Notes: generated by a model from the sequence alone, not told the origin. DNA of 64,000 nucleotides from an uncultured Gammaproteobacteria bacterium (GCA_964641255.1 CAZXMM010000001.1:246973-310972), one strand, 5' to 3'. Shown: positions 48,716-64,000, numbered from the stretch's first letter. Made by a program: numbers and translations.

Positions 48716-49288
48716 ATGGATAGTAAATATGTATCTCGTGGTGGAACCAAACTTGAGCACGCCCTAAGGGAATTTAACCTAAAGTGTACGGGACTCATTT
48801 GCTTTGATATTGGCAGTTCCACCGGCGGATTTGTTGATTGTCTCCTCCAACAGGGGGCTATAAAAGTTTACAGTCTAGATACTGCTTACGGAGAACTTGC
48901 CTGGAAACTTCGCCAAGACGAACGAGTGGTAGTAATGGAGAAAACAAATATTCTTCACTTTACTGATTTTCCAGCTCCAGTTGATTTGGTAACTATTGAT
49001 GTAACCTTTACTCCTCTTAAAAAGATCCTTCCGGTAGCCAAAAACTTTCTTAAGGAGGGGGGGAAAGTGGTTGCCCTTCTTAAGCCCCAGTATGAAGATC
49101 AAAAAGTTGCCATGAAGCACAAAAATAGAGGAGTAGTACCGAGCGAAGATCGTGATAAGATACTAGCTGATAGCCTTAAAGCTATTGCTGCTTTAGGATG
49201 GGTAATTGAAAACCAAACTACCTCACCTATTACTGGAACTGGAGGAAACACTGAGTACCTTGTACTGCTTAGTCAAGTGTCACCATGA
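48716..49288 (+). CDS. tlyA: TlyA-like FtsJ-type rRNA 2'-O-methyltransferase (no S4 domain)
   Basis: YVSRGGTKLEHAL...CFDIGSSTGGFVDCLLQQGA...VYSLD. Confidence 0.75.
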   Translation: MDSKYVSRGGTKLEHALREFNLKCTGLICFDIGSSTGGFVDCLLQQGAIKVYSLDTAYGELAWKLRQDERVVVMEKTNILHFTDFPAPVDLVTIDVTFTPLKKILPVAKNFLKEGGKVVALLKPQYEDQKVAMKHKNRGVVPSEDRDKILADSLKAIAALGWVIENQTTSPITGTGGNTEYLVLLSQVSP

Positions 49289-49953: not shown

Positions 49954-50107
49954 AATAATCACTAGAAACATTATTATATTTTTAATTTTTTCGCAGGTAA
50001 ATGAGAAATTATCGTGAAGGATTTCTAGGCTACGTGATCCAGCTCCCCAGCTAGTGCTCGGGTAGTTTTTCCTTCTCTTTTTCCCACTTCTCTGCAGACT
50101 GACTCAT

Positions 50108-51646
50108 ATGTCCTTTTTTTCACGGATTACTAGAACCATTAATAAAAAGCCGAGTAGTTTCCAGGCGAAGAGGCCACCGGTTAACGAACCCAGCCTCAAA
50201 GTTACTAAAGCAGCTAAAGGAGGGGCCCCAACTCCTCAAGTTGATCAGGTAGAAGCGCAGCGACTTATTTTTGAAGCTCAAACTCAGGCTAGAGACATCG
50301 TCTTTAGTGCTAAAGAAGAAGCGATTAAGCTTAAGACTGCAGCTGAGCAGGAAAGTCGCCACTTAAGAGAAGAAGTAGTCGCGTTAGAAAAACGTATTGT
50401 TCAAAAAGAAGAGACACTTGATACACGTTTGAAAGCGACTCTCGCAAAAGAGGCGGAACTTACTACGCTGGGTGAAGAACTAGAAAAACTCAAACAAGAA
50501 CAACTAGTAAAGCTGCAAAAAATTGCCAATCTTTCCCTTGAGGAAGCCAAAGAAAAGATTCTTGCTGCAGTAGAGGAGAAAAGTCGTAACGAGGCTGGGA
50601 AAATTATTCGAGATGTTTTAGATGCAGCTAAAGTTGAAGCGGCCAAAAAAGCCAGAGAGATCCTGGTTTCCGAAATGTTGCATGGGGCGACTGATTACGT
50701 TGCTGAATACACCGTTTCCACAATTAATGTCGCTAGCGAAGAGGTCAAGGGACGGATCATTGGTAAGGAGGGACGCAATATTAGAGCGTTCGAGCAAGCG
50801 ACCGGAGTCGATGTCAACTTTGATGAAGAGGGAGTCATTAGGCTTTCTTGCTTTGATTCAGTAAGACGCGAAATCGCCCGAGTGGCTTTAGAGCGACTTA
50901 TTAAGGACTCTCGTATCCAGCCTAGCCGTATCGAAGAGGTGGTAAATCAAGTTAAAAAAGAAGTAGAACGGATCATGTTTGAAGAAGGGGAAAAGCTCTG
51001 TCATATGGTGGGTGTTTACAATCTTCCCAGGCCTATCATGGAGGTTTTGGGTAAATTTAAGTACCGTTTCTCCTATGGTCAAAATATGATTGTTCATACC
51101 CTCGAAGAGACCAAACTGGGTATTGCTCTTGCCCAAGAAGTAGGAGCTGATGTTAATGTGGTGAGACTGGGTTGTCTGCTTCATGACATTGGGAAAGTCA
51201 TTGAGTCAGAAGAGGGGTCTCATGTTACTCTCGGTGCGCAATATTTGCGCAAGATGGGACTACCCGAAAATGTCGTGGCGTGTGTTGAAGAGCACCATGA
51301 AGATAGACCTTTCTCTTCAGTGGAGTCCATGCTTGTTTATCTTGGTGACGCCATTTCTGGTAGCCGGCCAGGGGCCCGCTACGAGGATGTGGGAAAATAT
51401 CTGGAGCGCATGAAGCAGCTCGAAGATCTTTGCCGCAGTTTTGACGGAGTCAATGAGGCTTGGGTATTCCAAGCCGGTCGCGAAATTAGGGTCCTAACGA
51501 GTCCTGAAAAGATGACTGACAACGAGACGGCAGTTCTAGCACAGAAGATTCGGGAAAAGATCGAACTAGAAGTCAAAGATTTTCCTGGTCAGATAAAAGT
51601 GACTGTCATTCGTGAGCTTCGAGTCACTCAAACGACTCGGAGTTAG
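50108..51646 (+). CDS. rny: Ribonuclease Y (KH plus HD domains), apparently lacking the N-terminal TM anchor
   Basis: Coiled-coil region, KH motif IIGKEGRNIRAFEQATGV, HD motif LLHDIGK; N-terminus is basic and hydrophilic rather than hydrophobic. Confidence 0.85.
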   Translation: MSFFSRITRTINKKPSSFQAKRPPVNEPSLKVTKAAKGGAPTPQVDQVEAQRLIFEAQTQARDIVFSAKEEAIKLKTAAEQESRHLREEVVALEKRIVQKEETLDTRLKATLAKEAELTTLGEELEKLKQEQLVKLQKIANLSLEEAKEKILAAVEEKSRNEAGKIIRDVLDAAKVEAAKKAREILVSEMLHGATDYVAEYTVSTINVASEEVKGRIIGKEGRNIRAFEQATGVDVNFDEEGVIRLSCFDSVRREIARVALERLIKDSRIQPSRIEEVVNQVKKEVERIMFEEGEKLCHMVGVYNLPRPIMEVLGKFKYRFSYGQNMIVHTLEETKLGIALAQEVGADVNVVRLGCLLHDIGKVIESEEGSHVTLGAQYLRKMGLPENVVACVEEHHEDRPFSSVESMLVYLGDAISGSRPGARYEDVGKYLERMKQLEDLCRSFDGVNEAWVFQAGREIRVLTSPEKMTDNETAVLAQKIREKIELEVKDFPGQIKVTVIRELRVTQTTRS

Positions 51647-51659
51647 TTTTTAAAACCCT

Positions 51660-52541
51660 ATGCGCATTCTTGGGAAAAAAATCGCTTTGGTTTTTAGTGT
51701 GGTTTTATTACTTATCTTGAGTGTTTTTGTTGTCAAACTTTCATTTTTTGATAAAGAGCCAACACTAGCGGCGATACAGGTTGACTCGTTCCCCAGGGCT
51801 GAAGTTCTCATAAACGGCCGTAAAGTAGGGACTACCCCGTACACTCAAGAAAAAATGACGGTGGGAGAATATCATGTTCGGTTAATTCCCATTGGCAGCG
51901 GTGGGACTTTTTACATCTGGGAAGGAAAAGTACCACTGTTTGGCGGGGGACTTACTTACATCAGTCGTGATTTAGGCAGCACTCCTAGTAACGGTGCTGG
52001 TCAAATGCTTTACCAGCGGCGGGGAGTAAACTCTTCGACGGGCGAACTAATCGTGGTCTCTACTCCGGATGGGGCACAGGTGGCGGTTGATGGGATAGTC
52101 AAAGGTAAAGCTTCAACGATAATTAAAAACCTTGACCGAGGCAATCACGACATCACTATCACGTTGACCGGTTTTGCCGACCAGATAGTGCCAGCTAAGA
52201 TCGAGCCCGGTTACCGCTTACATGTTTTTGTTGATCTGGCCCCCCTCCAGCTTGATTTTTTAGCTGCTGACGGTTCAGCCTCAGCTAGGCCTACAGCTGA
52301 TTTGCTTGACCCGTCTATTGCTACCTCTGGTGGTCTAGTTAAACCGTACGTAGTAATACTGGATACCCCACTGGGATTTCTTAGGCTTCGAAAGGACCCC
52401 TTCATCACTAGTCCGGAAATTGGCCAGGTGCTTCCCAAGGAACAGTTTCCACTTTTAAATGAGGAGTCTGGTTGGGTAAGGATTAAGCGGGCGAGTGATT
52501 CTGGTTGGGTGAGTGATCAATATGTAGAAGTGATCAAGTAG
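51660..52541 (+). CDS. Membrane-anchored PEGA-domain protein with C-terminal SH3b-like domain
   Basis: N-terminal TM; two PEGA-like repeats (VLINGRKVGTTPY; VAVDGIVKGKAST); C-terminal GWVRIKRASDSGWV. Confidence 0.55.
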   Translation: MRILGKKIALVFSVVLLLILSVFVVKLSFFDKEPTLAAIQVDSFPRAEVLINGRKVGTTPYTQEKMTVGEYHVRLIPIGSGGTFYIWEGKVPLFGGGLTYISRDLGSTPSNGAGQMLYQRRGVNSSTGELIVVSTPDGAQVAVDGIVKGKASTIIKNLDRGNHDITITLTGFADQIVPAKIEPGYRLHVFVDLAPLQLDFLAADGSASARPTADLLDPSIATSGGLVKPYVVILDTPLGFLRLRKDPFITSPEIGQVLPKEQFPLLNEESGWVRIKRASDSGWVSDQYVEVIK

Positions 52542-52568
52542 GTAGGAAGAAGACGGGGAGGCTGCTAA

Positions 52569-53519
52569 CTACTTTCCAATCACGTACACAATGAGAAACA
52601 GAGCCACACCCAAGACCAACGCGGTAATGACTAGGGGTCTATCACTCAGGAGTACTTTCTCGGGAGACTCGCCCTCATTTTTCTCATAGATCAGTTGCAG
52701 GTAACGCATAATGCCGTAAATGACTATAGGAATTGTAAGCATCAGCCATTTACGTTCCTGAAAAAGATAGAGGGTACTTTCATCAAAGAGTAGATCGCCG
52801 ATAGTTTTTCTCAGAACTGGAGGTTGTTGCAGGAAACTGTAAAAAGCGTAAGTTAACCAAGTAGAATTAGCAAACATCGAGATATAGACGTCTAGCATTT
52901 TTTCACTATAGTGATTAAGAGTAGTTCGCGTTTTTGAAGGGATAGCTCCGTGCCAACCAGAGAGGAGAGTTAATTCCGAGCGGCGTTTGCCAATGGCAAT
53001 GAAAAGTGCTCCGGAAATGACGGTGTAGAACAGCCAGATATCGATATGATAGCCAGTGGCCACTTCTCCCGCGAAGACTCTCAGCAGAAATCCGGCGGCA
53101 ATAGCAAAAATATCTAAGAGAATGATATTTTTGAGATAGAAGGAATAAGAGACCTGGAGGGCAAAATAAACAAGGACAATGATCACAAACGATGACGAAA
53201 CTAATGTTCCCAAAAAAAGGGCCAGTGCAGTCAGAATAACGGTAGCTAAAATTCCGGTCCGGCGGGATAGTTTCCCTGACGCTAGTGGCCGATTTTTTTT
53301 AAAGGGATGGAGTCGGTCCTTATCAATATCAGCCAGGTCGTTAACAATGTAAATTGCTGATGAAGTGGCACAAAAGGAAAGGAAGGCCAAGATAGTACTT
53401 CCCAGGAGAGTAAGATCAAGGAGTTGGCCGCTGAAAAAAATTGCCGCGAAAACTGCCCCATTCTTTATCCATTGCCGCGGTCTAATTTCTTTAAAAAGGT
53501 AGAAGAGTGTTTGAGCCAT
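52569..53519 (-). CDS. UbiA-family prenyltransferase (decaprenyl-phosphate phosphoribosyltransferase-like)
   Basis: NDLADIDKDRLHP Asp-rich motif; 8-9 TM segments. Confidence 0.7.
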   Translation of the reverse strand: MAQTLFYLFKEIRPRQWIKNGAVFAAIFFSGQLLDLTLLGSTILAFLSFCATSSAIYIVNDLADIDKDRLHPFKKNRPLASGKLSRRTGILATVILTALALFLGTLVSSSFVIIVLVYFALQVSYSFYLKNIILLDIFAIAAGFLLRVFAGEVATGYHIDIWLFYTVISGALFIAIGKRRSELTLLSGWHGAIPSKTRTTLNHYSEKMLDVYISMFANSTWLTYAFYSFLQQPPVLRKTIGDLLFDESTLYLFQERKWLMLTIPIVIYGIMRYLQLIYEKNEGESPEKVLLSDRPLVITALVLGVALFLIVYVIGK

Positions 53520-54580
53520 AATATCAGGGCGACCACCGCGACCGCAACGACAACAATGGCAAAGAATTTTTGCGTTGCGTTCACCGAGAGTGCGATCACT
53601 GCTAATATAGCAGATACTCCCCAGTAGAACAAGGCAATATGAGCTTTACTGACTCCAACTGCCAATAGTCGGTGATGGAGAAAACTTCTTGTCCCTAGGG
53701 TAGGATTCTTACCTTGGAGAATTTGCCCGAGTTTAACGTAGAGCGAATCAACGATAGGTATACCAAGGACCAAGATTGCCGTGCCAATTTTGGCAGTGGA
53801 TAATATGGCTAGGGTTGCCAGTAAATAACCGGCTAAGGACTTGCCTCCATAGCCAGGCATGATTTTTTGGGGAAAAAAGTTCCAGGGCATAAAGCCGAAA
53901 TAGATTCCCGCAGTGATGAAGGCTAAAGTTGTACCGGTCCAAGCAGGAAAGTTGGCGATAGAGATTTGGGTAAAGGAGAGGAGCCCAATGGTAAAGGCGG
54001 CTATAGTGACGAACCCAGGTAGTTGGCCGTCAACTCCCCCACTCCAGCCGACCATGTTCATGGTCCAGCTGATCCAGAGAATAGCTATTAAGTCAGCAAT
54101 CGGTAAAATGCTGTGTTCTCCCATAAAGACAAAAGTCCACCGGATACTATCGAGATGGATAACTCCACCGGTTAGGGGATTAGTGATAAACGGTATCCCA
54201 GCCCCTCCAGCTACTGCGAGGCTAGCGGCAATGATATTGGTGGCTAGTCGAAGATAGGGGTGGACATCGTGGTAGTCATCAATTAATCCAACAATAGCCA
54301 GAATAAGGGCCCCGAGCAAAATTCCCGCCAGTTCCTTAGTAATGGGAATAAAAATTAAACAGGTGACAACTAGCCCGGAGATAAGTGCCAATCCTCCCGC
54401 TCGAGGAACAACCCGAGTTTCTGTGTGTGCTGGATGGGGTCTAATGGCTGGGTCGTCGACGAGTCGGAAATACTTGGCGATTTCGATAACCGCCGGTAGT
54501 GTTATGGTGGTGATTAGTGCAGCTACTACAAAAGGTATCAAAGCTATGTTGCGAAAAATTGGGAAAATTAGCTCAAACAT
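53465..54580 (-). CDS. Polyprenyl-phosphate N-acetylhexosamine-1-phosphate transferase (MraY/WecA family, GT4)
   Basis: Multi-TM; VGLIDDYHDV motif; 371 aa; 55-nt overlap with the downstream UbiA-like gene. Confidence 0.7.
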   Translation of the reverse strand: MFELIFPIFRNIALIPFVVAALITTITLPAVIEIAKYFRLVDDPAIRPHPAHTETRVVPRAGGLALISGLVVTCLIFIPITKELAGILLGALILAIVGLIDDYHDVHPYLRLATNIIAASLAVAGGAGIPFITNPLTGGVIHLDSIRWTFVFMGEHSILPIADLIAILWISWTMNMVGWSGGVDGQLPGFVTIAAFTIGLLSFTQISIANFPAWTGTTLAFITAGIYFGFMPWNFFPQKIMPGYGGKSLAGYLLATLAILSTAKIGTAILVLGIPIVDSLYVKLGQILQGKNPTLGTRSFLHHRLLAVGVSKAHIALFYWGVSAILAVIALSVNATQKFFAIVVVAVAVVALILWLKHSSTFLKKLDRGNG

Positions 54581-55035
54581 TAACTCATTAAGTTAACAAT
54601 TCTAAACGTGGTGATAGCGGCTAAAATGGCGACTAACGAGGCGATGCCCACCAAAATATAGGCAGCGATTTTATCTCGGCTATGTAATGACGTAGCCAGT
54701 CCAAAGTTTATAAGTCCAATAGTCAGGGCTCCGCCAAGAGGAAGATAAATTAATTGATTTCTGGCCACCTGCAGTTCTCCCCAGGGCCGGCTGTAAAAAA
54801 GGGGAATTTCCAGGGGGAGATTGGTTTGGGCGAGAGCTGTAAAGATAACTACTGTTGCTAGAGGGAGAATCCAGCCAACAAAGGCACTGATCATTAACCG
54901 ATCTTTAGTAGCGCTTTCTGACCAACTGGAAAATCGCTCTCGCGTCTTATTGAGAGAGTAAAATTGTTTAGGTATCTCCGTTTTGGGAGTAATGATTTCG
55001 AACCGGAAAGTGTCTTTTCGATTGGAAGTGGCCAT
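54580..55035 (-). CDS. Small hypothetical membrane protein
   Basis: 151 aa, 3-4 TM segments. Confidence 0.4.
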   Translation of the reverse strand: MATSNRKDTFRFEIITPKTEIPKQFYSLNKTRERFSSWSESATKDRLMISAFVGWILPLATVVIFTALAQTNLPLEIPLFYSRPWGELQVARNQLIYLPLGGALTIGLINFGLATSLHSRDKIAAYILVGIASLVAILAAITTFRIVNLMS

Positions 55036-55041
55036 AGTGCT

Positions 55042-57192
55042 TTAGTCCAATTTACCGTAAATTCGCCGAATCCCGGCAGCCACAGATTCCTCTTTAATTA
55101 TATGAAACTTCCCCATATGTAAGGTATATTCAACGTGAGGGCCACCGCAAATTTCTCTACTCACTACATTACCACCACTATCGCTAAAGGTGTAAACCGT
55201 GACTTTGTCAGGATACCTTTCTTTAAAGAAAGCCAGCGCTCCCTTTTTAAGAGCCTCATTGTAGTCCATTGTTTCAACGGTGCGAACGAGATTTTTCTCA
55301 ATTTGCTCATTCACAAAATCCTCCACTGCTTTTACTTGTTCAGGCGTTAGTTTTTCTCCATGAGAGAAGTCAAAACGAAGCCGCTCGGCAGTAAGATTGG
55401 ACCCTTCTTGACGAATGTGGGGTCCCAGCACTTTCCTTAGTCCAGCTTGCAAAAGGTGAGTAGCACTGTGGTACCTAGTAACAATTTCGGAATGATCAGC
55501 TAGCCCTCCTTTAAATTTACCTTCAGTGGCTGATCTTGAAAGAAGTCGATGTTCATTAATCAGTTTTTCTAATCCGGCAGTATCAATGGCCAATCCTTTA
55601 TCATTCATTATTTCTTGAAGTATTTCGATAGGTACTCCATAAGTTGTTATAAATTTAAATGCCCAATATGAATTGAGCGTAATTTTATGATATCGAAAGC
55701 TGTTGATAAGTTCACGAAATCTTGTTTCATCATCTTTTGAAATTATAATTGGTTTTTTTATCTCTTCGAGATTGGTTGAGTAGGGTTTCCCTCCGTTTTT
55801 CGTATATAGCTGGTACAATTCTATTAGACGGTCACGTTGTTCCTCCACAATAAAAGTGTTAATGACGCCCTCTTTAGTGGCAAGTAACGAAAGATTGGAA
55901 AAAAAGGAATTTTTTGTCAGAAAATCGACTGTTTTTTGAACTTCGTATACTTCTTCGATTTCCTTCATTATCACTGAGGGAATATCTTTTGGAGTTTTAT
56001 TTATTGCCGCGATTAGAGGAGTGATTTTTTCAATTTCGTTCATGCCTTTGGCTAATGAATTCCTGAACTTATCTTCTTCCTCCCTTAATATATTTTTAAT
56101 CAGTTCTTGGTTATTAAGTAACTCAGGATACACGACTTTGTAAATAGCAATATTGCTGTCGGCAATAATTGGAGTGAATGAGTCTTGAATTTGTAGCTCT
56201 CTTGCAAAACGGATCGAACGCCTGATTAGTCTTCGTAAAATGTAGCCACGGTCCACGTTAGAGGGTCTTACGCCTTCTGAAATAAGAAATACTGATGATT
56301 TAATATGGTCGGCAATAACACGAAACATAAGGGTGACTCTTTCATCTTTACCATATTTTTTACCAGATATTCTTTCTAACTCTTGAATGTTTTTATAGTG
56401 GATGTCAGTGAGATAGAAATCCGGATTGTCATTTAAGACAGATAGGGTTCGTTCAAATCCACCACCAAAGTCAACATTTTTCTGAGAGAGTTCGGTCAAA
56501 TCTCCGTTTTCTTGTTTTTGATATTGTATGAAGACTGAATTACCAATTTCTAAAAACCTACCACAGTCACAATTAGGATGACATTCGTCATTAGAGAACT
56601 TTGACGTTTCATGTATCTTTCTATCTTGGCCAAAGTCATAAAAAACTTCTGAATCAGGACCACCTATTTCTCCTACGGGCATTTCCGATGGGGTTCCACT
56701 TCTAGACCACCAATTTTTTCTAAAATCATAATAATGAATCCGATTTTCTGGGATTCCTAGAGATTTCCATATTTTTTCGGATTCCTCATCTTTTGGAACG
56801 CTAGCGCTCCCTTTGAAACAAGATACATGCAACTTCTTTAAGGGGATACTGAGGACTTTAGTCAAATACTCTAGATACCAACTGAGTTGTTCATTTTTAA
56901 AATAATCTCCTAACGACCAGTTACCATACATTTCGAAAAAAGTATCATGGCGATTGTCTCCCACCTCTTCAATGTCTTGTCCTCGGAAGCATTTCTGAAT
57001 ATCTACCAGTCTAGTGCCTAGCGGATGGGGTTGGCCAAGAAGATACGGAATCAAAGGCTGCATGCCCGAGCCGGTAAAAAGTGTGGTAGGGTCGTTGTCA
57101 GGAACCAGTGAACTCGAATGAATATGCACGTGGTTTCTGGGGGCCTCCTGCCAAAACTTGAAATATTTATCGCGCAATTCTAAATGTGTCAT
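55042..57192 (-). CDS. alaS: Alanine--tRNA ligase, short form lacking C-terminal C-Ala domain
   Basis: Catalytic core (FTGSGMQPLIPY, FEMYGNWSLGDYF); editing domain HSATHLL...HxxxH...CGGPHV; start moved to the ATG at 57190-57192 (ORF track starts at a TTG at 57222). Confidence 0.9.
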   Translation of the reverse strand: MTHLELRDKYFKFWQEAPRNHVHIHSSSLVPDNDPTTLFTGSGMQPLIPYLLGQPHPLGTRLVDIQKCFRGQDIEEVGDNRHDTFFEMYGNWSLGDYFKNEQLSWYLEYLTKVLSIPLKKLHVSCFKGSASVPKDEESEKIWKSLGIPENRIHYYDFRKNWWSRSGTPSEMPVGEIGGPDSEVFYDFGQDRKIHETSKFSNDECHPNCDCGRFLEIGNSVFIQYQKQENGDLTELSQKNVDFGGGFERTLSVLNDNPDFYLTDIHYKNIQELERISGKKYGKDERVTLMFRVIADHIKSSVFLISEGVRPSNVDRGYILRRLIRRSIRFARELQIQDSFTPIIADSNIAIYKVVYPELLNNQELIKNILREEEDKFRNSLAKGMNEIEKITPLIAAINKTPKDIPSVIMKEIEEVYEVQKTVDFLTKNSFFSNLSLLATKEGVINTFIVEEQRDRLIELYQLYTKNGGKPYSTNLEEIKKPIIISKDDETRFRELINSFRYHKITLNSYWAFKFITTYGVPIEILQEIMNDKGLAIDTAGLEKLINEHRLLSRSATEGKFKGGLADHSEIVTRYHSATHLLQAGLRKVLGPHIRQEGSNLTAERLRFDFSHGEKLTPEQVKAVEDFVNEQIEKNLVRTVETMDYNEALKKGALAFFKERYPDKVTVYTFSDSGGNVVSREICGGPHVEYTLHMGKFHIIKEESVAAGIRRIYGKLD

Positions 57193-57388
57193 ACCAACAA
57201 AAAAACTCGTCTGTGTAACCAAATACTCACTTTGGGTTACAAGGACGAGTCAAACTCGTGGTACCACCTTGTTTTACCCTCCAAAGCCTTGGCGACGGAG
57301 GGCCTCTCTTGTCTAATTTATACAGTAGACCTCTGTAAAGCTCCCGGGGTGGCCTTTCCTGACAGGAATTCTTCCCGATCAACGCTCA
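57193..57388 (-). promoter_or_regulatory. T-box riboswitch leader upstream of alaS (candidate Ala specifier GCC)
   Basis: Minus strand reads ...CAAGG-UGGUACC-ACGAG-UUUGA-CUCGU-CCUUG..., the canonical antiterminator with 7-nt UGGNACC bulge (+57255..57270); overlapping long terminator hairpin plus U7 (+57199..57250); upstream stem GGAGGG/CCCUCC; possible specifier ...GAAAG-GCC-A. Confidence 0.7.
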
Positions 57389-57394
57389 CCCTGT

Positions 57395-57423
57395 ATTGTA
57401 CGCCCCCTGGGACCCGTGGTCAA
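57395..57423 (-). promoter_or_regulatory. Sigma70-like promoter for the alaS leader: -35 TTGACC, 17-nt spacer, -10 TACAAT
   Basis: Read on the minus strand; the -35 overlaps the stop of the upstream YtxH-like gene. Confidence 0.55.
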
Positions 57424-57424
57424 A

Positions 57425-57778
57425 TTATTTTGTTTTTTTACTGCTTGCCACCACCCGGGCTTTTTTGAGGGGGATAGTCTCAATCTGAGGGGGGAGGATT
57501 TTACCTTCCTGTACGTCAGTTGGCCTCGTTTGGGGAGCGGTAGCCTCTGAGATCAGCAGTTTGACGTCATCAAGGAGACTTGCTGGCAGGTCCTGCAAAA
57601 GACCTTTTGAGTTTTGCACCATATCATCGACGGTAGTAAAGACTCCGGGGAGCTTGTTACGCAAATCCCTGCGCACCTTTTTACCTTCTTCCGTTCCAAA
57701 AAGAAATGCGGCGGCAACACCAAGAGTAGCACCGGCAATTATTCCGCCTAACAGTGGGAGCCGTTTGTCTATTGCCAT
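57425..57778 (-). CDS. YtxH-like small membrane/stress protein
   Basis: N-terminal GGIIAGATLGVAAAFLF glycine-zipper TM followed by a charged helical region. Confidence 0.5.
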   Translation of the reverse strand: MAIDKRLPLLGGIIAGATLGVAAAFLFGTEEGKKVRRDLRNKLPGVFTTVDDMVQNSKGLLQDLPASLLDDVKLLISEATAPQTRPTDVQEGKILPPQIETIPLKKARVVASSKKTK

Positions 57779-57788
57779 AGGAGAAAGC

Positions 57789-58055
57789 CTACTTCTTATC
57801 TTTGGTAAGTAGCTTGATAATACTAGACCAGCCCTTTACTCCTGTTAGCATCGTTGAGATCATGCTGACTGGTTTACTGACCGATTCTGAGATTACTCCG
57901 GTATCATCTAAAACCTTGTTGGTTTTTGCTAAAGTAAGTCGGAACTCTTTGAGAACAAAATAAAGTTGCGTCGCCACCACTCCTAACATAATAGTAATTG
58001 CTACTAGAGCTGCAATAAAGATAACCTGAGTTAGATCCATACTTGTTTCCAGCAT
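57789..58055 (-). CDS. DUF948-like small membrane protein
   Basis: 88 aa; single N-terminal TM plus coiled region. Confidence 0.45.
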   Translation of the reverse strand: MLETSMDLTQVIFIAALVAITIMLGVVATQLYFVLKEFRLTLAKTNKVLDDTGVISESVSKPVSMISTMLTGVKGWSSIIKLLTKDKK

Positions 58056-58088
58056 AGTCTAAACAGAGCTTGAATGCAACCTTCAGAG

Positions 58089-58721
58089 CTACTGTTCCAG
58101 CCGAACTGTTCGTATAACAGTTGACTGCTTCTTAAATTTATTGGTGGCGACGATTTTTAGAGTGTTAATTCCTCGGCGAAGCGTCAGCTTCTGGCTAAAT
58201 GTTCCAGCTTCATTGACTCCGACCACTTCGTCATTAATTGTTAAGGCGGCTTCTGGATCAATTTTCCCCTTTATCTCTATAACTTCAGCTTTGGTAACGG
58301 TATTATTTTGCGGGGAGTCAACGTTTAAAACGGGTGCTCCTGCAAACTTAACGTAGGAATAGACCAAATAACCGAAGAAAAGTAGGAGAAGAATTGCTAT
58401 TGACGTAGAGGCGAAGAGTTGGGGGGTAAGGCTAAACGTAGGTTTTATTCTATCTTTTCTAGTGGGACTTAAAACCTCCGGTTGTTCGATTGTTGTTTGC
58501 CTTCGGTAAAAAGCTAAAGCGTCTTCCGGGGAGATTCCCAGAAATGTAGCGTAGTTTTTAATGAAACCGCGAACGAATGCACCCGGCGGCATGCTGGCAA
58601 AGTCGTTTTTTTCAATAGCCTCCAGAAATTTAGCTCTGATTTTAATGGCTACCTCTACCTGGGTAATTGACAGGTGTTTTTTTTCCCGAGCCAAGCGCAG
58701 AATTTCACCAACAGTGGTCAT
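58089..58721 (-). CDS. rodZ: RodZ-like cytoskeleton protein (N-terminal HTH, TM, C-terminal domain)
   Basis: XRE-type HTH LSITQVEVAIKIRAKFLEAIE, central TM, C-terminal beta-rich domain. Confidence 0.65.
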   Translation of the reverse strand: MTTVGEILRLAREKKHLSITQVEVAIKIRAKFLEAIEKNDFASMPPGAFVRGFIKNYATFLGISPEDALAFYRRQTTIEQPEVLSPTRKDRIKPTFSLTPQLFASTSIAILLLLFFGYLVYSYVKFAGAPVLNVDSPQNNTVTKAEVIEIKGKIDPEAALTINDEVVGVNEAGTFSQKLTLRRGINTLKIVATNKFKKQSTVIRTVRLEQ

Positions 58722-60904
58722 GAGGTTTGACTAGCTTCTGTTCGACTAGCAAAATATTCATCAGCGTTTCTAACCAGTACGTCTCGGGGTTTACTGCCCT
58801 CTCCTGGACCAACTATCCCTAGCTCCTCAAGCGTATCTAAGATCCGCGCGGCTCGAGCGTAACCAATTGACAACTTACGCTGAAGCAGGGAGGCTGAAGC
58901 TCGGTCAAATTGGCACAGAATTCTAATCGCCTCGTCAATAAGTTGGTCGCCACCACCGGCGGCTGTTCCTTTTTGACCGGGTCGTTGTTGTATTGTGTGC
59001 ATGCTGGTAACCTCCTCTGTGTATTGAACAGGTCCCCCTTTAGCTTTAAGAAAATCAACCAATCGATGAACCTCAGAGTCGGAGATGAATGCTCCTTGAA
59101 TACGACTGGGCCTGCTTTGGTCGGGGGGAATATAGAGCATGTCTCCCCTGCCTAAGAGTTTTTCCGCTCCCGGAGCATCAATGATTACTCGCGAATCAAT
59201 CATTGAAGTAACGTTAAAAGCGATTCGACAGGGAATGTTAGCTTTAATTAACCCGGTGATGACGTCAACGCTTGGTCTTTGGGTGGACAGGATTAGGTGA
59301 ATGCCAGTAGCCCGGGCCATTTGGGCTAGGCGACAAACGGCGTCTTCGACTTCAACGGGAGCAAACATCATTACGTCAGCCATCTCATCAATGACTATAA
59401 TCAAGTAGGGTAGGGCTTGAAAACCAGCCAGTTCGTTATACCCTTCCATATTGCGTACTCCCACCGAGGCAAATAATTTATATCTTCTTTCCATTTCCGT
59501 GATTGCCCATTTTAAGGCAGAGAGCACCTTGTCCACTTCAACAATCACTGGCGTTAGCAAGTGAGGAATCCCATTGTAAAGTGATAGTTCGACTCGTTTG
59601 GGATCGACAAGTATCAATTTTAGTTCTGCAGGTGAGTTGCGATACAACAGGGAGGCCAGTAACGCATTGATAGAAACGGACTTACCAGATCCGGTAGCTC
59701 CAGCAATAAGGGCGTGGGGCATTTTGGCAATGTCTGCCACTTGAGCTTGTCCTGAAACATTTAGTCCGAGAGCAATAGTCAGCTTGCTGGCGGACTGCGC
59801 AAAAGCGGGCGAATCAAGAATCTGCTTAACAGTAACAGATTCGGGAGTGCGATTGGGGATTTCAATTCCTACTAGTGACCGACCGGGGATGGGAGCTTCG
59901 ATGCGGATTTGACCAGGAGCAGCCAATGCTAAGGCCAGGTCGTTTTGTAAAGTCATGATTTTTGACAGTTTAGTCCCCACGGCAATTTCGAGAGCGTATT
60001 GGGTCACGGCTGGTCCTCTGTTGACTTCGGCTACCCGAGCGGTAATTCCAAAAGCTTCCAAGGTTTTTTCAATAATGGCAGCGTTTTGATTGACATCGCC
60101 CCGGTCAGCTTTCCCCCCAGGAGTATCAGAAAAAAGGTTGATTGGAGGGTACTCCCACAGCTTGGTTTCTTCCTGTGTGTTTTGTAGGCCATCACTAGTG
60201 GCAATACTGGCAGTAACACTGGCGGTGGATGGTGGTTGACCCGTTGACGGTTTTGGGTTAGCTTGGGAAGTGACGGGACTAACCGAGTTATCCGAAATTG
60301 CCCCCGCTGCCTGCTGAGAGAGAAAGTCAGTTCCCACCCCTTTTTGACTATTGCTGACTGTTGTCAAATTATCTTTGACAAAAACAGGTTTAGCTTTACT
60401 AGCAAAGTGAAAGTATTTTTGAAAAAATGCCTTAAGAGTAGCAGCTGTTTCCTGAATGATCTTGGCTGCTTCCCCAAGAGAAATGTTCAAAAATACTGTT
60501 AGGCCGAAAAGCGCTACTAAGAGAAAAACGAAAAAGACGGCAAACCCCACAGGGAGAAGAGAATAGAGTCCGGCAAACAGGCTTTCTCCAAAGCTTCCCG
60601 ATGTTGAGAGTGCCCAAAGTGACAAACTAACGAGCGACAGCCCAATAATACTATTGGCTTTAGCTATCGAAATTTTAAATTTGGCGAGGGCCAAAGCGAG
60701 TTGAACCATGATGATGGCGAGTAAGATTCTCCCCCAACCAAAATTACTACTAAAGAAATGGTTGATTCTACCAAGGAACTGACCATTAGGTATTACTACG
60801 GCGATGAGAAGTAGCCCGGCACTACCAAATAGCGCTAGGGAAAAAAGCGAATAAACTGTCTGTTTGCGGAGTTTGAGTTTAAAAAGAGATCTTCTTCTGG
60901 CCAT
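58718..60904 (-). CDS. ftsK: DNA translocase FtsK/SpoIIIE
   Basis: N-terminal TM segments, Pro/Ser-rich linker, motor domain AGATGSGKS, C-terminal gamma domain LLQRKLSIGYARAARILD. Confidence 0.92.
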   Translation of the reverse strand: MARRRSLFKLKLRKQTVYSLFSLALFGSAGLLLIAVVIPNGQFLGRINHFFSSNFGWGRILLAIIMVQLALALAKFKISIAKANSIIGLSLVSLSLWALSTSGSFGESLFAGLYSLLPVGFAVFFVFLLVALFGLTVFLNISLGEAAKIIQETAATLKAFFQKYFHFASKAKPVFVKDNLTTVSNSQKGVGTDFLSQQAAGAISDNSVSPVTSQANPKPSTGQPPSTASVTASIATSDGLQNTQEETKLWEYPPINLFSDTPGGKADRGDVNQNAAIIEKTLEAFGITARVAEVNRGPAVTQYALEIAVGTKLSKIMTLQNDLALALAAPGQIRIEAPIPGRSLVGIEIPNRTPESVTVKQILDSPAFAQSASKLTIALGLNVSGQAQVADIAKMPHALIAGATGSGKSVSINALLASLLYRNSPAELKLILVDPKRVELSLYNGIPHLLTPVIVEVDKVLSALKWAITEMERRYKLFASVGVRNMEGYNELAGFQALPYLIIVIDEMADVMMFAPVEVEDAVCRLAQMARATGIHLILSTQRPSVDVITGLIKANIPCRIAFNVTSMIDSRVIIDAPGAEKLLGRGDMLYIPPDQSRPSRIQGAFISDSEVHRLVDFLKAKGGPVQYTEEVTSMHTIQQRPGQKGTAAGGGDQLIDEAIRILCQFDRASASLLQRKLSIGYARAARILDTLEELGIVGPGEGSKPRDVLVRNADEYFASRTEASQTS

Positions 60905-60956
60905 GGCAGATTAAAATATACTCTTATTTTAGCAAGAAAACTGCATCTTTGCAGAA

Positions 60957-61313
60957 ATGAGTAGTTTGTATATGATCACTACTATGACAATCGGCAGATT
61001 ATTAACCTTTATCCACGCTGAAAACGATCGGTTGGATAAAAAGTATCGGTTTTCTACCAAGCTAGAAGCGCTTCTGGCTAAGACAGTTAAAATGGGCGAG
61101 GAATTGGGCGAGTTGTATGGTGAAATTCTTGGGACAAGTAAACTCGTTCGTAAAGAAAAGTTGGGAAGATACTCAAGAAGCACCATCGAAGATGAAATTG
61201 CCGACTGCATCATAACCACTCTCCTTGTGGCTGACAGTCTTGGAGTCGACGTAAGCAAGGCACTTGAGAAGAAAATAGAAAAGATAAACCAGCGTTATTC
61301 TAGACTTCCATAA
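60957..61313 (+). CDS. MazG-like nucleotide pyrophosphohydrolase (single domain)
   Basis: EELGELYGEIL...EDEIADCIITTL EExxE/D metal-binding helices. Confidence 0.6.
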   Translation: MSSLYMITTMTIGRLLTFIHAENDRLDKKYRFSTKLEALLAKTVKMGEELGELYGEILGTSKLVRKEKLGRYSRSTIEDEIADCIITTLLVADSLGVDVSKALEKKIEKINQRYSRLP

Positions 61314-62991
61314 TAACCGGAAGGATTAGAGGTCTTCGGTGAGTAGCTTCAAACAAAAACTTTTCCAGCGACTCGCTGATGCGGCGTCTTAGAAATCGCA
61401 TATCACTGTTTTGCGGTGGGTGCTTTTGCACCACCTCCCTAACTAGTTGTTTGGCTTCACCGATAAGTTCCTCAGATTCCTTCATATACACAAAACCCCT
61501 GGAAACAATATCAACGTCTCCCACCACTTCTCCAGTGGCTTTTTCAAAAGGTATTATAGCCATAACTACACCATCGGCAGACATTGTCAGTCGGTCGCGA
61601 AGGACTACGTTGCCAACGTCTCCAATACCCAGCCCGTCAATAAGAACGTTTTTAATTTCCGCTTTTCCAGCCAATCTTACTTTGCCATTTTGAAATTCGT
61701 GAATTGAACCCTCCTCGGGGTTAACAATTTGCTCCTCTGTATAGCCCATTCCCATAACCATTTTAGAATAGCGCTTAATCTGTCTTAAATTTCCCCCAAT
61801 CGGCCAGACAAATTTTGGTTTAGTCAAATTTAACATCAGCTTTAGCCCATCGGCAGCTTCGTGTCCAGAGACATGGAGATCGTCCAAGATTCCAGAATAG
61901 TAGACCTCAGCCCCAACTCTAAAGAGCGTGTTAATGAGTTCGTCAACTGCGTTTTCGCTTCCTGGAATTGGATCCTGGGAGAAGATAACCATATCGCCTT
62001 CAGTGATTCTGATTTTGTGTTCACCGTTGGCAATACGTGATAGGGCAGCGTTGTCTTGTCCTTGAGCTCCGGTAGCCAGCACCATAACCTGATTGGGAGG
62101 GAGAGCGTTTACTTGTTCAGCTTTAATAATAATTTGGCGCGGCAGGGTTAAAAATCCCAACTTCACTGCAGTTTCGGCATTTTGTTCCATACTGCGTCCA
62201 GCAAAGGCGACCTTTCGTCCGTGGCGCTGGGCAACATTGATCGCTTGTTGAATGCGACTAATGTTGGATGACGTCGTAGTCATAATAAATTTCCCTTTAC
62301 ACTTTTGAATTTGCTGTTCAAAGGTTTCTTCAATCATTCTTTCAGACAGTGTATAGCCTGATTTTTCCACCCGGAGACAATCACTAAGGAGACACAAGAT
62401 TCCTTGTTTTCCCACTTCTGCGATACGCTGAACATCGGTGGGAAAGTTGTCAACCGGAGTCCAGTCAAACTTGAAATCAGAGCCGTGGTAGATGACTCCC
62501 GCTGGGGTGGTAATGATTAAATTTGCCGCGTCAGGAATTGAATGAGTCACATGGACAAACTCGACTTTAAAATCCCCAGCCCCGATAGGTTGTCCATAGA
62601 GTCCCTCTCTAAAGTCTACTTTAAGCCCCGCCTCTTCGCATTTGTGTTTAGCAAGTCCGATCGTCAGTTTGGTGCCATAAACAGGAATACTCGGAAGTTC
62701 TGGCAAAATATAGGGCAGGGATCCGCGGTGATCCTCGTGGCCGTGGGTTAAAAAGATGCCTCTAATTTTGTCTTTTTTGTCAAGGAGGTAGGTAATATCA
62801 GGGATGATAAGGTCAATTCCCGGCATGTTCTCGTCAGGAAAAGCAATCCCACAATCGACAATAATAATGTCCCGCTCCGTCTCATAAACGTACATATTAC
62901 GGTTGACCTCCATCCCACCCAAAGAGAGGACGCGAACCTTACCTCCAAATGAAGCCTGTCGTTGATTTTGATTTGGTGTGAATAAATCCAT
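61300..62991 (-). CDS. rnj: Ribonuclease J (metallo-beta-lactamase/beta-CASP)
   Basis: HGHEDH motif; beta-CASP region; 563 aa. Confidence 0.9.
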   Translation of the reverse strand: MDLFTPNQNQRQASFGGKVRVLSLGGMEVNRNMYVYETERDIIIVDCGIAFPDENMPGIDLIIPDITYLLDKKDKIRGIFLTHGHEDHRGSLPYILPELPSIPVYGTKLTIGLAKHKCEEAGLKVDFREGLYGQPIGAGDFKVEFVHVTHSIPDAANLIITTPAGVIYHGSDFKFDWTPVDNFPTDVQRIAEVGKQGILCLLSDCLRVEKSGYTLSERMIEETFEQQIQKCKGKFIMTTTSSNISRIQQAINVAQRHGRKVAFAGRSMEQNAETAVKLGFLTLPRQIIIKAEQVNALPPNQVMVLATGAQGQDNAALSRIANGEHKIRITEGDMVIFSQDPIPGSENAVDELINTLFRVGAEVYYSGILDDLHVSGHEAADGLKLMLNLTKPKFVWPIGGNLRQIKRYSKMVMGMGYTEEQIVNPEEGSIHEFQNGKVRLAGKAEIKNVLIDGLGIGDVGNVVLRDRLTMSADGVVMAIIPFEKATGEVVGDVDIVSRGFVYMKESEELIGEAKQLVREVVQKHPPQNSDMRFLRRRISESLEKFLFEATHRRPLILPVIMEV

Positions 62992-62997
62992 ATGATT

Positions 62998-63639
62998 TTA
63001 GACTAATTGTAACTGTTCTCCGCCTTTTTTGCTGCTCGAGTTGGTCTCGGCTTCTTTGGGGGTAGGAGATAACAGTTCTTTGAGTTTGATAAAATCTTGC
63101 TCAAACGTATGTAACAGGTTGGTGGCTCTTAGTGCAGCGGCCGGATGATACATGGGATAGACCAGAAGGGGACGTCCATCCCATTCGATAGTATGGGGTT
63201 GGCCGTGAATCCTACTAATACTGACTCCCTCACCCAAGAATTTGTACATGGAAAACCTGCCTAGGGTCACTACTACCTTGGGGGCGATGGTTTTAATCTG
63301 CTTATCAAGAAATGGCTTAAAAAAAGCAATTTCTTCCGGAGTAGGATCCCTGTTCTCTGGCGGACGGAACTTAACGATGTTAGTAATATAAACTTCTCTT
63401 TCATCAAACCCATTCTTAGCGAGCTCTTTTCGCAGCAGTTTTCCGGCTTGTCCGACAAAGGGTCGCCCCTGCTGGTTTTCGTTAAATCCTGGGGCTTCTC
63501 CTATAAAGAGAATTTCTGCATCTGGATTACCCTCTCCTGGTACTGGATTAACATTGGGCCCTGCGAGAGGTCCCCCGTTAGTGGCGGCTATTTCTTTGGC
63601 AATGTCATTTAGCTGGGATAGTTTGCTCTTAGCGTCCAT
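62998..63639 (-). CDS. Uracil-DNA glycosylase, family 4/5 type
   Basis: GEGNPDAEILFIGEAPGFNE...GRPFVGQAG. Confidence 0.8.
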   Translation of the reverse strand: MDAKSKLSQLNDIAKEIAATNGGPLAGPNVNPVPGEGNPDAEILFIGEAPGFNENQQGRPFVGQAGKLLRKELAKNGFDEREVYITNIVKFRPPENRDPTPEEIAFFKPFLDKQIKTIAPKVVVTLGRFSMYKFLGEGVSISRIHGQPHTIEWDGRPLLVYPMYHPAAALRATNLLHTFEQDFIKLKELLSPTPKEAETNSSSKKGGEQLQLV

Positions 63640-63655
63640 AGTCCCATTCTAGCAA

Positions 63656-64000
63656 TTAAGAAGGAAGGAATTCCGACAAATTAGCCTCATTAATTACTAC
63701 CGCTTTATTGTTACTGGTCACAATTTTCTTGGCGGCTTTTCGCACCATTCCTCCAATTGTGCGCTCAAGAGTACGAATCCCCCCGTCAAAGCCCAACGGT
63801 CTAACAACTTTTGACCAGACTGTGGGATCAATCTGAAGAGAATCTGGGGGGAGACCAGAATCCTTCATAATTCTGGGAAGGACATAGTCTCTTGCGATGG
63901 TGGTTTTTTCCTCATCCGAGTAGGAGGGCATGGTAATAGGTTCGAGACGGTCAAGGACGGCGGTACTAATGTGGGAGGTGTTGTTACTGGTGGCAATAAA
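63656..64000 (-). CDS. lon: Lon protease, C-terminal end of the AAA+ region and following helical region only; gene runs off the window edge
   Basis: Frame open to position 64000: FIATSNNTSHISTAVLDRLEPITMPSYSDEEKTTIARDYVLPRI parallels Lon FIATAN...LLDRMEVI...EDEK..IAKRHLLPK. Confidence 0.75.
   Translation of the reverse strand, partial: FIATSNNTSHISTAVLDRLEPITMPSYSDEEKTTIARDYVLPRIMKDSGLPPDSLQIDPTVWSKVVRPLGFDGGIRTLERTIGGMVRKAAKKIVTSNNKAVVINEANLSEFLPS

What the first reader, a model, noticed from the sequence alone, without database searches (positions are those of the whole stretch)
57193..57424. Canonical T-box antiterminator/terminator leader upstream of alaS
On the minus strand the about 196-nt leader contains helix CAAGG/CCUUG interrupted by the exact 7-nt T-box bulge UGGUACC. 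The N of UGGN is U, matching the tRNA-Ala discriminator A. A second helix ACGAG/CUCGU follows, and downstream is a long mutually exclusive terminator hairpin plus U7 ending 6 nt before the alaS ATG. A near-consensus promoter (TTGACC-N17-TACAAT) lies at the right distance. A GGAGGG/CCCUCC stem precedes the T-box sequence as stem III would. GCC followed by A in ...GAAAGGCCA... is a plausible Ala specifier. This would be tRNA-Ala-sensing control of an unusually short AlaRS (726 aa, no C-Ala domain).
Basis: partly seen in the sequence, partly recalled or inferred. Interest (0 to 1): 0.6.

Follow-up and report, generated by a model that had tools for sequence, protein, structure and literature searches.

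The report
Stripped-down alanine T-box riboswitch
The leader of the alanyl-tRNA synthetase gene in this tiny-genome (Patescibacteria/CPR) bacterium is a real tRNA-sensing T-box riboswitch, but a stripped-down one that lacks the tRNA-elbow platform thought to be needed by T-boxes that act through a transcription terminator.

Summary
On the minus strand, 57388..57199 holds a T-box leader. Rfam RF00230 matches it at 54.6 bits, E = 3.7e-9 for the whole window.

It is not canonical. Stem I is truncated: a K-turn, a specifier internal loop and a 5-bp cap, with no AG-bulge/distal-loop platform. No S-turn-bearing Stem II is present, only a small pseudoknot where IIA/B would sit.

Homologous leaders precede alaS in six of the eleven closest Microgenomates relatives examined. 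None was found in about 70 other Patescibacteria alaS loci. Two relatives carry the GCC specifier in a terminal loop ("ultrashort" Stem I). All keep a hairpin followed by U6-7.

The genome barely uses Shine-Dalgarno sites (4 of 63 genes), so attenuation of transcription is the likely output.

Similar short-Stem-I, terminator-type T-boxes turned up in low-GC metagenome contigs, next to ileS, proline-synthesis genes, serS, and with a Trp specifier. One of the ileS contigs was placed in Paceibacterota.

The literature I could read ties short Stem I to translational, actinobacterial ileS T-boxes.

Verdict: a real T-box and a new variant of a known kind. Interest is moderate to high.

The parts
57395..57423 (-). 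Sigma-70-type promoter TTGACC-N17-TACAAT. The inferred transcription start is near 57388, right at the foot of Stem I.
   Evidence: 10 of 12 matches. It is one of three 10/12 sites in 44001..64000. Comparable -10 or extended -10 boxes lie at the same place in L083, L089 and L091 (sequences).
57339..57386 (-). Truncated Stem I. It consists of a C-stem AGC/GCU, a K-turn-like GUU bulge with tandem GA/GA, an NC stem UCGGG/CCCGG, a specifier internal loop (5' AAGAA, 3' AGGCCAC) and a 5-bp cap UUCCU-GUC-AGGAA. There is no AG bulge or distal loop.
   Evidence: Rfam alignment: model positions 24-94 are replaced by 20 nt. Segmentation and pairing were checked. The C-stem, NC stem and cap covary among W, L083, L084 and L087.
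57351..57353 (-). Specifier codon GCC (Ala), followed by the conserved purine A at 57350.
   Evidence: GCC-A is invariant in all six orthologous alaS leaders, whether it sits in an internal loop or a terminal loop. The downstream gene is alaS.
57311..57337 (-). H-type pseudoknot in the position of Stem IIA/B. The hairpin is UACAG-AGGUCUA-CUGUA, and its loop GUCUA pairs with UAGAC at 57315..57311. No S-turn Stem II lies between Stem I and this element.
   Evidence: L083 has CAG-AUUUCAAA-CUG with loop UUUCAA pairing to UUGAAA. That gives two positions with compensatory double changes (G:C to U:A, U:A to A:U). Support rests on only two sequences.
57276..57310 (-). Purine-rich linker (AAGAGAG) followed by Stem III: GCCCUCCG-UC-GC-CAAG-GC-UU-UGGAGGGU. 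AAAA follows at 57275..57272.
   Evidence: [quoted passage not shown] Stem III has a different sequence but is paired in L083, L084, L087 and L091, and is absent in L089.
57240..57271 (-). T-box sequence and antiterminator: A1 CAAGG/CCUUG, 7-nt bulge UGGUACC (UGGU pairs with the tRNA 3' ACCA), A2 ACGAG-UUUGA-CUCGU.
   Evidence: Local folding energy is -8.7 kcal/mol.
57199..57249 (-). Intrinsic terminator. Its 5' arm CUCGUCCUUG re-uses the 3' strands of A2 and A1. The upper stem is UGUAACC/GGUUACA and the hairpin is followed by U7 at 57205..57199.
   Evidence: -17.1 kcal/mol against -8.7 for the antiterminator. RNAalifold on five relatives gives 17 pairs, 6 of them with compensatory changes. 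A U6-7 run is present in every relative.
55042..57192 (-). alaS, the short-form alanine--tRNA ligase (716 aa; catalytic domain plus editing domain tRNA_SAD; no C-Ala). This is the regulated gene. There is no Shine-Dalgarno sequence in the 6-nt spacer GUUGGU.

Best explanation
This is a tRNA-Ala-responsive T-box riboswitch of reduced architecture. It most likely controls alaS by transcription attenuation.

Proposed sequence of events:
1. Transcription starts near 57388.
2. A short Stem I forms first: a K-turn, then an internal loop that presents GCC-A, capped by 5 bp. It pairs with the anticodon of tRNA-Ala (GGC expected).
3. A small pseudoknot and Stem III follow.
4. If the bound tRNA is uncharged, its 3' ACCA pairs with UGGU of the 7-nt bulge. 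This stabilises the weak antiterminator (about -9 kcal/mol), and RNA polymerase reads through into alaS.
5. If the tRNA is charged or absent, the stronger terminator (about -17 kcal/mol, followed by U7) forms and transcription stops 6 nt before the ATG.

The leader has no tRNA-elbow platform (IDTM) and no S-turn Stem II. Recognition must therefore rest on the all-G:C codon-anticodon helix plus the NCCA contact.

What is shown: the sequence elements, their conservation and covariation, and the mutual exclusivity of the two 3' structures.
What is inferred: tRNA binding, dependence on charging, termination as the output, and which tRNA-Ala isoacceptor is read.
For: - Rfam T-box match: E = 2.3e-11 locally and 3.7e-9 for the whole window.
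- All motifs are at the stated coordinates.
- Homologous leaders sit at the same syntenic position (FtsK, HTH protein, small ORF, YtxH-like protein, then the leader and alaS) in relatives P0006, P0009, P0017, P0003, P0033 and P0020. Rfam E-values for the five tested range from 6.7e-10 to 5e-3.
- GCC-A and UGGU are invariant across these leaders, while the helices change sequence and stay paired.
- The terminator hairpins have unrelated upper stems, yet all pair and all are followed by U6-7. RNAalifold finds 6 compensatory pairs.
- The terminator is more stable than the antiterminator in every leader: -13.6 to -25.2 against -8 to -17.9 kcal/mol.
- Only 4 of 63 genes in the window have a Shine-Dalgarno-like motif. 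SD sequestration, the mechanism of the known short-Stem-I T-boxes, therefore has nothing to act on here.
- The ultrashort Stem I fold is supported across 21 metagenomic and relative sequences: 92% of cells paired against 65% in shuffles, and a covariation score of 0.68 against 0.17, with 0 of 500 shuffles reaching it.
- GCC:GGC is an all-G:C pairing. Review PMC7583486 uses the same argument to explain why Gly (GGC) T-boxes can do without Stem II.
Against: - There is no experimental evidence of any kind.
[quoted passage not shown] This leader lacks both, so its efficiency as a co-transcriptional switch is uncertain.
- The terminator ends only 6 nt before the ATG, so the hairpin could equally occlude ribosome loading. 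In relative L089 a GAGG sits in the 3' arm exactly 7 nt before the AUG.
- A generic scan shows only modest enrichment of intrinsic-terminator-like sites in this genome: 29 against 20 +/- 5.
- The tRNA-Ala gene set of the organism could not be examined. The window holds only tRNA-Pro.
- The pseudoknot rests on two sequences.
- Five close relatives have no leader at all, so the control is dispensable.
Confidence: 0.75

Rival explanations
1. It is a canonical, full-length T-box of the Bacillus type: long Stem I with an elbow-binding platform, Stem II, IIA/B, Stem III and an antiterminator.
For: The 3' half (Stem III, T-box sequence, antiterminator, terminator) is close to consensus. The base of Stem I has the usual GA/K-turn signature.
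Against: - The Rfam alignment deletes 71 model positions of distal Stem I.
- Only 118 nt separate the foot of Stem I from GGUGG. In a Clostridial alaS T-box that keeps the AGAGA and GGUG distal motifs, the Rfam match spans 211 nt up to the antiterminator.
- The promoter abuts Stem I and the upstream gene ends at 57425, so there is no room for more RNA.
- No S-turn Stem II is present.
Confidence: 0.03
2. The same T-box acts mainly or additionally on translation. The 'terminator' hairpin, which ends 6 nt before the AUG, blocks 30S loading on full-length transcripts. tRNA binding frees the U-rich initiation region. This would make it a sequestrator-type switch like the actinobacterial short-Stem-I T-boxes.
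For: - Short and ultrashort Stem I have so far been linked to translational control (PMC7583486, bioRxiv 10.1101/2023.02.28.530422).
- The hairpin lies within a ribosome footprint of the AUG in W, L083 and L089.
- L089 has GAGG-U7-AUG, with the GAGG inside the 3' arm.
Against: - A U6-7 tract directly after the hairpin is kept in all leaders, even where the AUG is 8-17 nt further on, as in L084, L087 and L091. That is the signature of an intrinsic terminator, not of a sequestrator.
- The genome almost lacks SD sequences (4 of 63), and alaS has none.
- The two mechanisms are not mutually exclusive.
Confidence: 0.2
3. It is a decaying or non-functional remnant, or a chance resemblance sitting next to an ordinary terminator or promoter.
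For: The leader is absent from five of the eleven closest alaS relatives examined and from about 70 other Patescibacteria alaS loci. Its modules are reduced.
Against: - E = 3.7e-9.
- The functional residues (GCC-A, UGGUACC) are invariant across leaders whose AlaRS proteins are only 59-66% identical, while the helices covary.
- Promoter, leader and terminator are intact in every copy.
Confidence: 0.03

Closest known systems
Transcriptional T-box riboswitches of Bacillota (Rfam RF00230), for example B. subtilis tyrS or alaS leaders and the Clostridial short-alaS leaders L002, L005 and L009
   Same: - The T-box sequence.
- A 7-nt UGGN bulge between helices A1 and A2.
- Stem III with flanking purines.
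- A terminator that shares its 5' arm with the antiterminator, followed by a U-run.
- A K-turn at the foot of Stem I.
- A specifier codon followed by a purine that matches the regulated aaRS gene.
   Different: - No distal Stem I, so no AG bulge, distal loop or IDTM.
- No S-turn Stem II.
- The F-box sequence of IIA/B is not conserved.
- The leader is about 60-70 nt shorter.
- The host is a Patescibacteria (Microgenomates) bacterium that hardly uses SD sequences.
Translational short ('intermediate') and ultrashort Stem I T-boxes of Actinobacteria ileS (Sherwood et al. 2015, as described in PMC7583486 and bioRxiv 10.1101/2023.02.28.530422)
   Same: Stem I lacks the elbow platform. The specifier sits in a side loop capped by a short helix (window, L083, L084, L087) or in the terminal loop (L089, L091). 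Helix A2 carries an insertion in L083.
   Different: - The output element is a hairpin plus U6-7 (an intrinsic terminator), not an SD sequestrator.
- The regulated gene is alaS, not ileS.
- The window's leader has no S-turn Stem II, which is reported as essential in the actinobacterial class.
- The phylum is different.
glyQS-type T-boxes (Stem II-less, Gly GGC specifier)
   Same: There is no Stem II. The codon-anticodon helix is all G:C (GCC:GGC here, GGC:GCC there), and that is the published rationale for doing without Stem II. Both are transcriptional, with a terminator.
   Different: glyQS leaders keep the long Stem I with IDTM and lack the IIA/B pseudoknot. This leader has the opposite combination.

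Membership tests
T-box leader (RF00230) | Conserved T-box sequence forming an antiterminator with a 7-nt bulge UGGNACC between helices A1 and A2 | tested here: met
   AAAACAAGGUGGUACCACGAG at 57275..57255, with A1 CAAGG/CCUUG and A2 ACGAG/CUCGU.
T-box leader (RF00230) | An alternative, mutually exclusive terminator hairpin followed by a U-run | tested here: met
   57249..57199. The 5' arm is the 3' strands of A2 and A1. Energy is -17.1 against -8.7 kcal/mol, followed by U7. It covaries in relatives.
T-box leader (RF00230) | Specifier loop in Stem I holding a codon that matches the regulated gene, followed by a purine; UGGN matches the discriminator base | tested here: met
   GCC-A at 57353..57350 upstream of alaS. 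It is invariant in six orthologous leaders. UGGU fits A73 of tRNA-Ala; that rests on general knowledge, because the tRNA gene is not in the window.
T-box leader (RF00230) | GA/K-turn motif at the base of Stem I | tested here: met
   AGC-GUU-GA...GA-GCU. The C-stem and NC stem covary. The three-dimensional K-turn fold itself is inferred.
T-box leader (RF00230) | Distal Stem I platform (AG bulge plus distal loop, IDTM) that stacks on the tRNA elbow | tested here: not met
   71 model positions are replaced by 20 nt. Only a 5-bp cap with a GUC loop remains. The promoter and the upstream stop codon leave no room for more RNA.
T-box leader (RF00230) | Stem II with an S-turn, and a Stem IIA/B pseudoknot with the F-box | tested here: inconclusive
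   No Stem II or S-turn lies between 57338 and 57311. A pseudoknot with two compensatory changes against L083 occupies the IIA/B position, but it lacks the CCGUUA-type F-box. Relatives L084, L087, L089 and L091 do have a short Stem II hairpin and a CGG...CCGUAA IIA/B.
T-box leader (RF00230) | Score at or above Rfam's gathering threshold | tested here: not met
   54.6 bits against 93. A long-Stem-I Clostridial alaS T-box also scores only 52.1, so this threshold does not separate real from false here. E = 3.7e-9.
T-box leader (RF00230) | Binding of uncharged cognate tRNA causes readthrough | not testable with these tools
   Needs in vitro transcription or binding assays.
Translational short/ultrashort-Stem-I T-box class (Actinobacteria ileS) | Stem I without IDTM | tested here: met
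Translational short/ultrashort-Stem-I T-box class (Actinobacteria ileS) | Sequestrator helix that occludes a Shine-Dalgarno sequence, with no terminator U-run | tested here: not met
   There is no SD upstream of alaS. The genome has SD-like motifs at 4 of 63 genes. The hairpin is followed by a U7 tract that is conserved in relatives.
Translational short/ultrashort-Stem-I T-box class (Actinobacteria ileS) | Regulates ileS with an Ile specifier | tested here: not met
   The gene is alaS and the specifier is GCC. The 2023 preprint states that all ultrashort T-boxes regulate ileS.

The most novel reading that the evidence does not exclude
Patescibacteria (CPR) may carry a so far undescribed class of minimal T-boxes that act through intrinsic terminators.

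- They lack the tRNA-elbow platform. In this window's type they also lack Stem II.
- They cover several amino acids: Ala here; Ile, Pro, Trp and Ser in low-GC metagenome contigs.

If this is right, co-transcriptional sensing of tRNA charging can work with only the anticodon and NCCA contacts. The 'short Stem I = translational, ileS, Actinobacteria' rule would then reflect which genomes had been sampled.
Probability: 0.45. Interest if true: 0.75.

Novelty: new variant of a known kind. Interest (0 to 1): 0.6.

Why it matters
T-box reviews argue that terminator-type T-boxes need the Stem I platform (IDTM) to capture tRNA fast enough before RNA polymerase reaches the terminator. They also say that platform-less T-boxes are translational, actinobacterial, ileS-specific and dependent on Stem II.

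This leader and its relatives combine a platform-less Stem I with a classical terminator. The host almost lacks Shine-Dalgarno sites. The amino acid sensed is alanine, and the phylum is one where I found no published T-box report (six full-text searches returned nothing).

If the leader is functional, it is a natural minimal system of about 120-150 nt. It could be used to ask what is really required for co-transcriptional tRNA sensing.

It also shows that annotation thresholded at the Rfam gathering score misses these elements: they score 30-67 bits against a threshold of 93.

Tried and rejected
- **Single-protein scan of genome contigs.** It found no relative. An alignment-based scan was needed instead.
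- **Regex and structure detectors on 80 genome loci.** They found T-boxes only in three Clostridial loci. I therefore dropped the idea that alaS T-boxes are general in Patescibacteria.
- **Unconstrained MFE folding of whole leaders.** It pairs the specifier region GGCCACC with the T-box GGUGG and hides Stem I. I treated this as a likely artefact and used manual segmentation that was checked by script.
- **MAFFT alignment of whole leaders (A2).** It misaligns the variable Stem I and Stem II regions, so I did not use it for pair counts.
- **The generic terminator scan.** It misses the T-box terminator because of its bulge and internal loop.
- **tRNA-Ala search.** I looked for tRNA-Ala genes in the window and in 21 loci and found none.
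- **Primary papers.** Sherwood 2015 and Vitreschak 2008 are not held in the library. The description of the known classes therefore rests on the review PMC7583486, the TBDB paper and a 2023 preprint.
- **The conserved 151-aa ORF downstream of alaS.** I checked whether it is a detached C-Ala domain. It has no Pfam or NCBIfam support.

Full report
**Observation**

I read 57700..56900 on the minus strand and mapped each element by script.

- Promoter TTGACC-N17-TACAAT lies at 57423..57395. It starts two bases after the stop codon of the upstream YtxH-like gene, which ends at 57425.
- The RNA would begin near 57388.
- The T-box sequence AAAACAAGGUGGUACCACGAG runs from 57275 to 57255.
- Helix A1 is CAAGG/CCUUG. 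The bulge is UGGUACC. Helix A2 is ACGAG-UUUGA-CUCGU.
- A 44-nt hairpin (57249..57206) re-uses CUCGUCCUUG as its 5' arm. It is followed by U7 (57205..57199), then GUUGGU, then the ATG at 57192.

Rfam's T-box model (RF00230) matches 57391..57238 at 54.6 bits, with E = 2.3e-11 locally and 3.7e-9 for the whole window. This is below the curated threshold of 93 bits, so the default scan is silent. It is the only T-box in the window by Rfam and by my own antiterminator detector.

**The regulated gene**

The ORF from the ATG at 57192 to 55042 encodes a 716-aa AlaRS.

- Pfam finds tRNA-synt_2c and tRNA_SAD but no C-Ala/DHHA1 domain.
- It meets NCBIfam NF002436, the 595-position short-form alanine--tRNA ligase model.
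- The 726-aa figure comes from a TTG that lies inside the terminator.
- Relatives are 570-640 aa. This protein carries an insert of about 110 aa.
- The names that sources give to homologues place the organism in Patescibacteria, in the Microgenomates group (Gottesman-, Roizman-, Woese- and Levybacteria).
- The source contig is 950 kb.

**What is not canonical**

In the Rfam alignment, 71 model positions of distal Stem I are replaced by 20 nt. Stem I (57386..57339) consists of:

- a C-stem AGC/GCU;
- a GUU bulge with tandem G-A pairs (a K-turn signature);
- an NC stem UCGGG/CCCGG;
- an internal loop with 5' AAGAA and 3' AG-GCC-A-C;
- a 5-bp cap.

There is no AG bulge or distal loop, so the interdigitated T-loop platform (IDTM) that stacks on the tRNA elbow is missing. 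There is also no room for it. Only 118 nt separate the foot of Stem I from GGUGG. By contrast, a Clostridial alaS T-box keeps AGAGA and GGUG in its distal Stem I, and its Rfam match spans 211 nt up to the antiterminator.

Directly after Stem I comes the hairpin UACAG-AGGUCUA-CUGUA. Its loop GUCUA is complementary to UAGAC five bases downstream. No S-turn-bearing Stem II is present.

**Relatives**

I looked up eleven of the closest AlaRS proteins in their contigs. All eleven share the gene order FtsK, HTH protein, small ORF, YtxH-like protein, alaS.

- Six carry a homologous leader: P0006/L083, P0009/L084, P0017/L087, P0003/L218, P0033/L089 and P0020/L091.
- Five do not: P0004, P0019, P0042, P0036 and P0007.
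- Rfam recognises the five leaders tested (L083, L084, L087, L089, L091) with E-values from 6.7e-10 to 5e-3, always below the gathering score.
- In 80 alaS loci from species genomes, only three Clostridial loci have a T-box. None of the roughly 70 Patescibacteria loci does.

The leader is therefore confined to a small Microgenomates clade and is patchy within it.

**Comparative anatomy (every segmentation was checked against the real sequence)**

- GCC-A and UGGUACC are invariant.
- The C-stem varies (AGC/GCU or AAC/GUU).
- The NC stem varies (UCGGG/CCCGG, UUGGG/CCCAG, UUGG/CCAG, UUGGG/CCCAA, UGCCAAAG/CUUUGGCA).
- The Stem I cap, Stem III and the upper terminator all change sequence while staying paired.
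- RNAalifold on five terminators gives 17 pairs, 6 of them with compensatory changes.
- W, L083, L084 and L087 have the specifier in a side loop ('intermediate' Stem I).
- L089 (UUGGG-AUGCCAA-CCCAA) and L091 have it in the terminal loop ('ultrashort').
- L084, L087, L089 and L091 have a short Stem II hairpin with a purine-rich loop, plus a CGG-loop-CCGUAA IIA/B element.
- The window and L083 have only the pseudoknot. Between these two, two positions show double compensatory changes.
- L089 lacks Stem III and needs only 117 nt from the K-turn to the end of A1.

**Mechanism**

In every leader the terminator is more stable than the antiterminator: -13.6 to -25.2 against -8 to -17.9 kcal/mol. In every leader it is followed by U6-7, whatever the distance to the AUG (0-17 nt). 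That pattern is the hallmark of an intrinsic terminator.

Only 4 of 63 genes in the window have GGAG, GAGG or AGGA at -20..-4, and alaS has none. SD sequestration is the mechanism of the known platform-less T-boxes, and it has no target here.

I therefore favour tRNA-Ala-dependent transcription attenuation. Occlusion of the initiation region by the same hairpin is a possible second effect, because the hairpin ends 6 nt from the AUG and L089 has GAGG-U7-AUG.

The effector should be uncharged tRNA-Ala that reads GCC (anticodon GGC) and has A73. I could not check this. The window holds only tRNA-Pro(GGG), and the fetched loci hold no tRNA-Ala.

The all-G:C codon-anticodon helix may explain the loss of Stem II. 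The review makes the same argument for Gly T-boxes (PMC7583486).

**Wider context found along the way**

I scanned metagenomes for the family's antiterminator (GGTGGNACCACGA...CTCGTCCTTG). The scan returned, besides ordinary long-Stem-I T-boxes, many low-GC contigs with K-turn plus ultrashort Stem I leaders that end in a hairpin and a U-run.

| Specifier | Loop or feature | Downstream gene(s) | Loci |
|---|---|---|---|
| Ile | loop NNAUCAC | ileS | L098, L100, L127, L135, L145, L160, L170, L187, L188, L194, L199, L208, L209 |
| Pro | loop UUUCCCGC | class-III aminotransferase, amino-acid kinase, P5C reductase, ArgZ-like | L116, L192, L138, L148 |
| Trp | UGG with bulge UGGC | not assigned | L107, L129, L171 |
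| Ser | not assigned | serS | L205 |

- The IleRS of L199 belongs to Paceibacterota/Nomurabacteria. The taxonomy of the other contigs was not tested.
- Across 21 such Stem I sequences, the proposed fold is paired in 92% of cells against 65% in shuffles. There are 42 double-change cells, and the covariation score is 0.68 against 0.17, with 0 of 500 shuffles reaching it.

**Comparison with what is known**

- TBDB applies its translational covariance model to T-boxes with a truncated Stem I.
- A 2023 preprint (bioRxiv 10.1101/2023.02.28.530422) says all ultrashort T-boxes regulate ileS and are translational.
- Six full-text searches that combined T-box terms with CPR, Patescibacteria, Saccharibacteria or Parcubacteria found no paper. 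The library is incomplete, and the primary papers were not available.

**Verdict**

The element is a member of the T-box family by its defining 3' domain, its specifier logic and its K-turn. It fails the 'canonical' features (IDTM, Stem II). It also does not fit the described short-Stem-I class, because it has a terminator instead of a sequestrator and regulates alaS instead of ileS.

I rate it a new variant of a known kind, with interest 0.6. Confidence that it is a functional Ala T-box is about 0.95. Confidence that it acts chiefly by transcription termination is about 0.75.

Noticed in passing
window, all 63 gene starts (for example 12277, 24859, 57192): The genome almost lacks Shine-Dalgarno motifs. 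Only 4 of 63 genes have GGAG, GAGG or AGGA at -20..-4.
   Followed up: partly
window 55042-57192 (-) and 54580-55035 (-): AlaRS is the short form without C-Ala (NF002436). It carries an insert of about 110 aa (roughly aa 388-540) that is absent from 605-aa relatives. A conserved ORF of about 150 aa with no Pfam or NCBIfam hit follows it directly in most relatives.
   Followed up: partly
L160, L199 (metagenome contigs); proteins P0121-P0240: IleRS proteins in this cluster, several of which sources label Paceibacterota or Nomurabacteria, are about 1150-1220 aa and contain an inserted histidine-phosphatase domain (PF00300).
   Followed up: no
L116, L136, L138, L148, L192: Low-GC contigs carry ultrashort-Stem-I, terminator-type T-boxes with loop UUUCCCGC (Pro). 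They lie upstream of a class-III aminotransferase, an amino-acid kinase, P5C reductase and an ArgZ-like gene, which is an apparent proline-synthesis regulon. The taxonomy of these contigs was not checked.
   Followed up: partly
L171 13052-13400; also L107, L129: Trp-specific minimal T-boxes (UGG specifier, UGGC bulge). In L171 the T-box lies about 165 nt downstream of a tRNA-Trp(CCA) gene and is followed only by a very short ORF. In L107 the leader has just one hairpin between Stem I and the T-box.
   Followed up: no
window 57391-57238; L002 2210-2420; L083-L192: All T-boxes examined score 30-67 bits against an RF00230 gathering score of 93. This includes a long-Stem-I Clostridial alaS leader at 52 bits. 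Annotation thresholded at the gathering score would miss them all.
   Followed up: yes
window 57355-57349 versus 57269-57263 (-): The specifier-loop sequence GGCCACC is complementary to the T-box GGUGG(UACC). Unconstrained MFE folds pair the two in W, L084, L087 and L218. This may be an artefact, or it may be a tRNA-free 'closed' state.
   Followed up: no
window 12221-12243 (+): A 9-bp hairpin followed by TTTTT lies about 30 nt upstream of the rpoB start at 12277. It may be the attenuator between the L7/L12 gene and rpoB.
   Followed up: no
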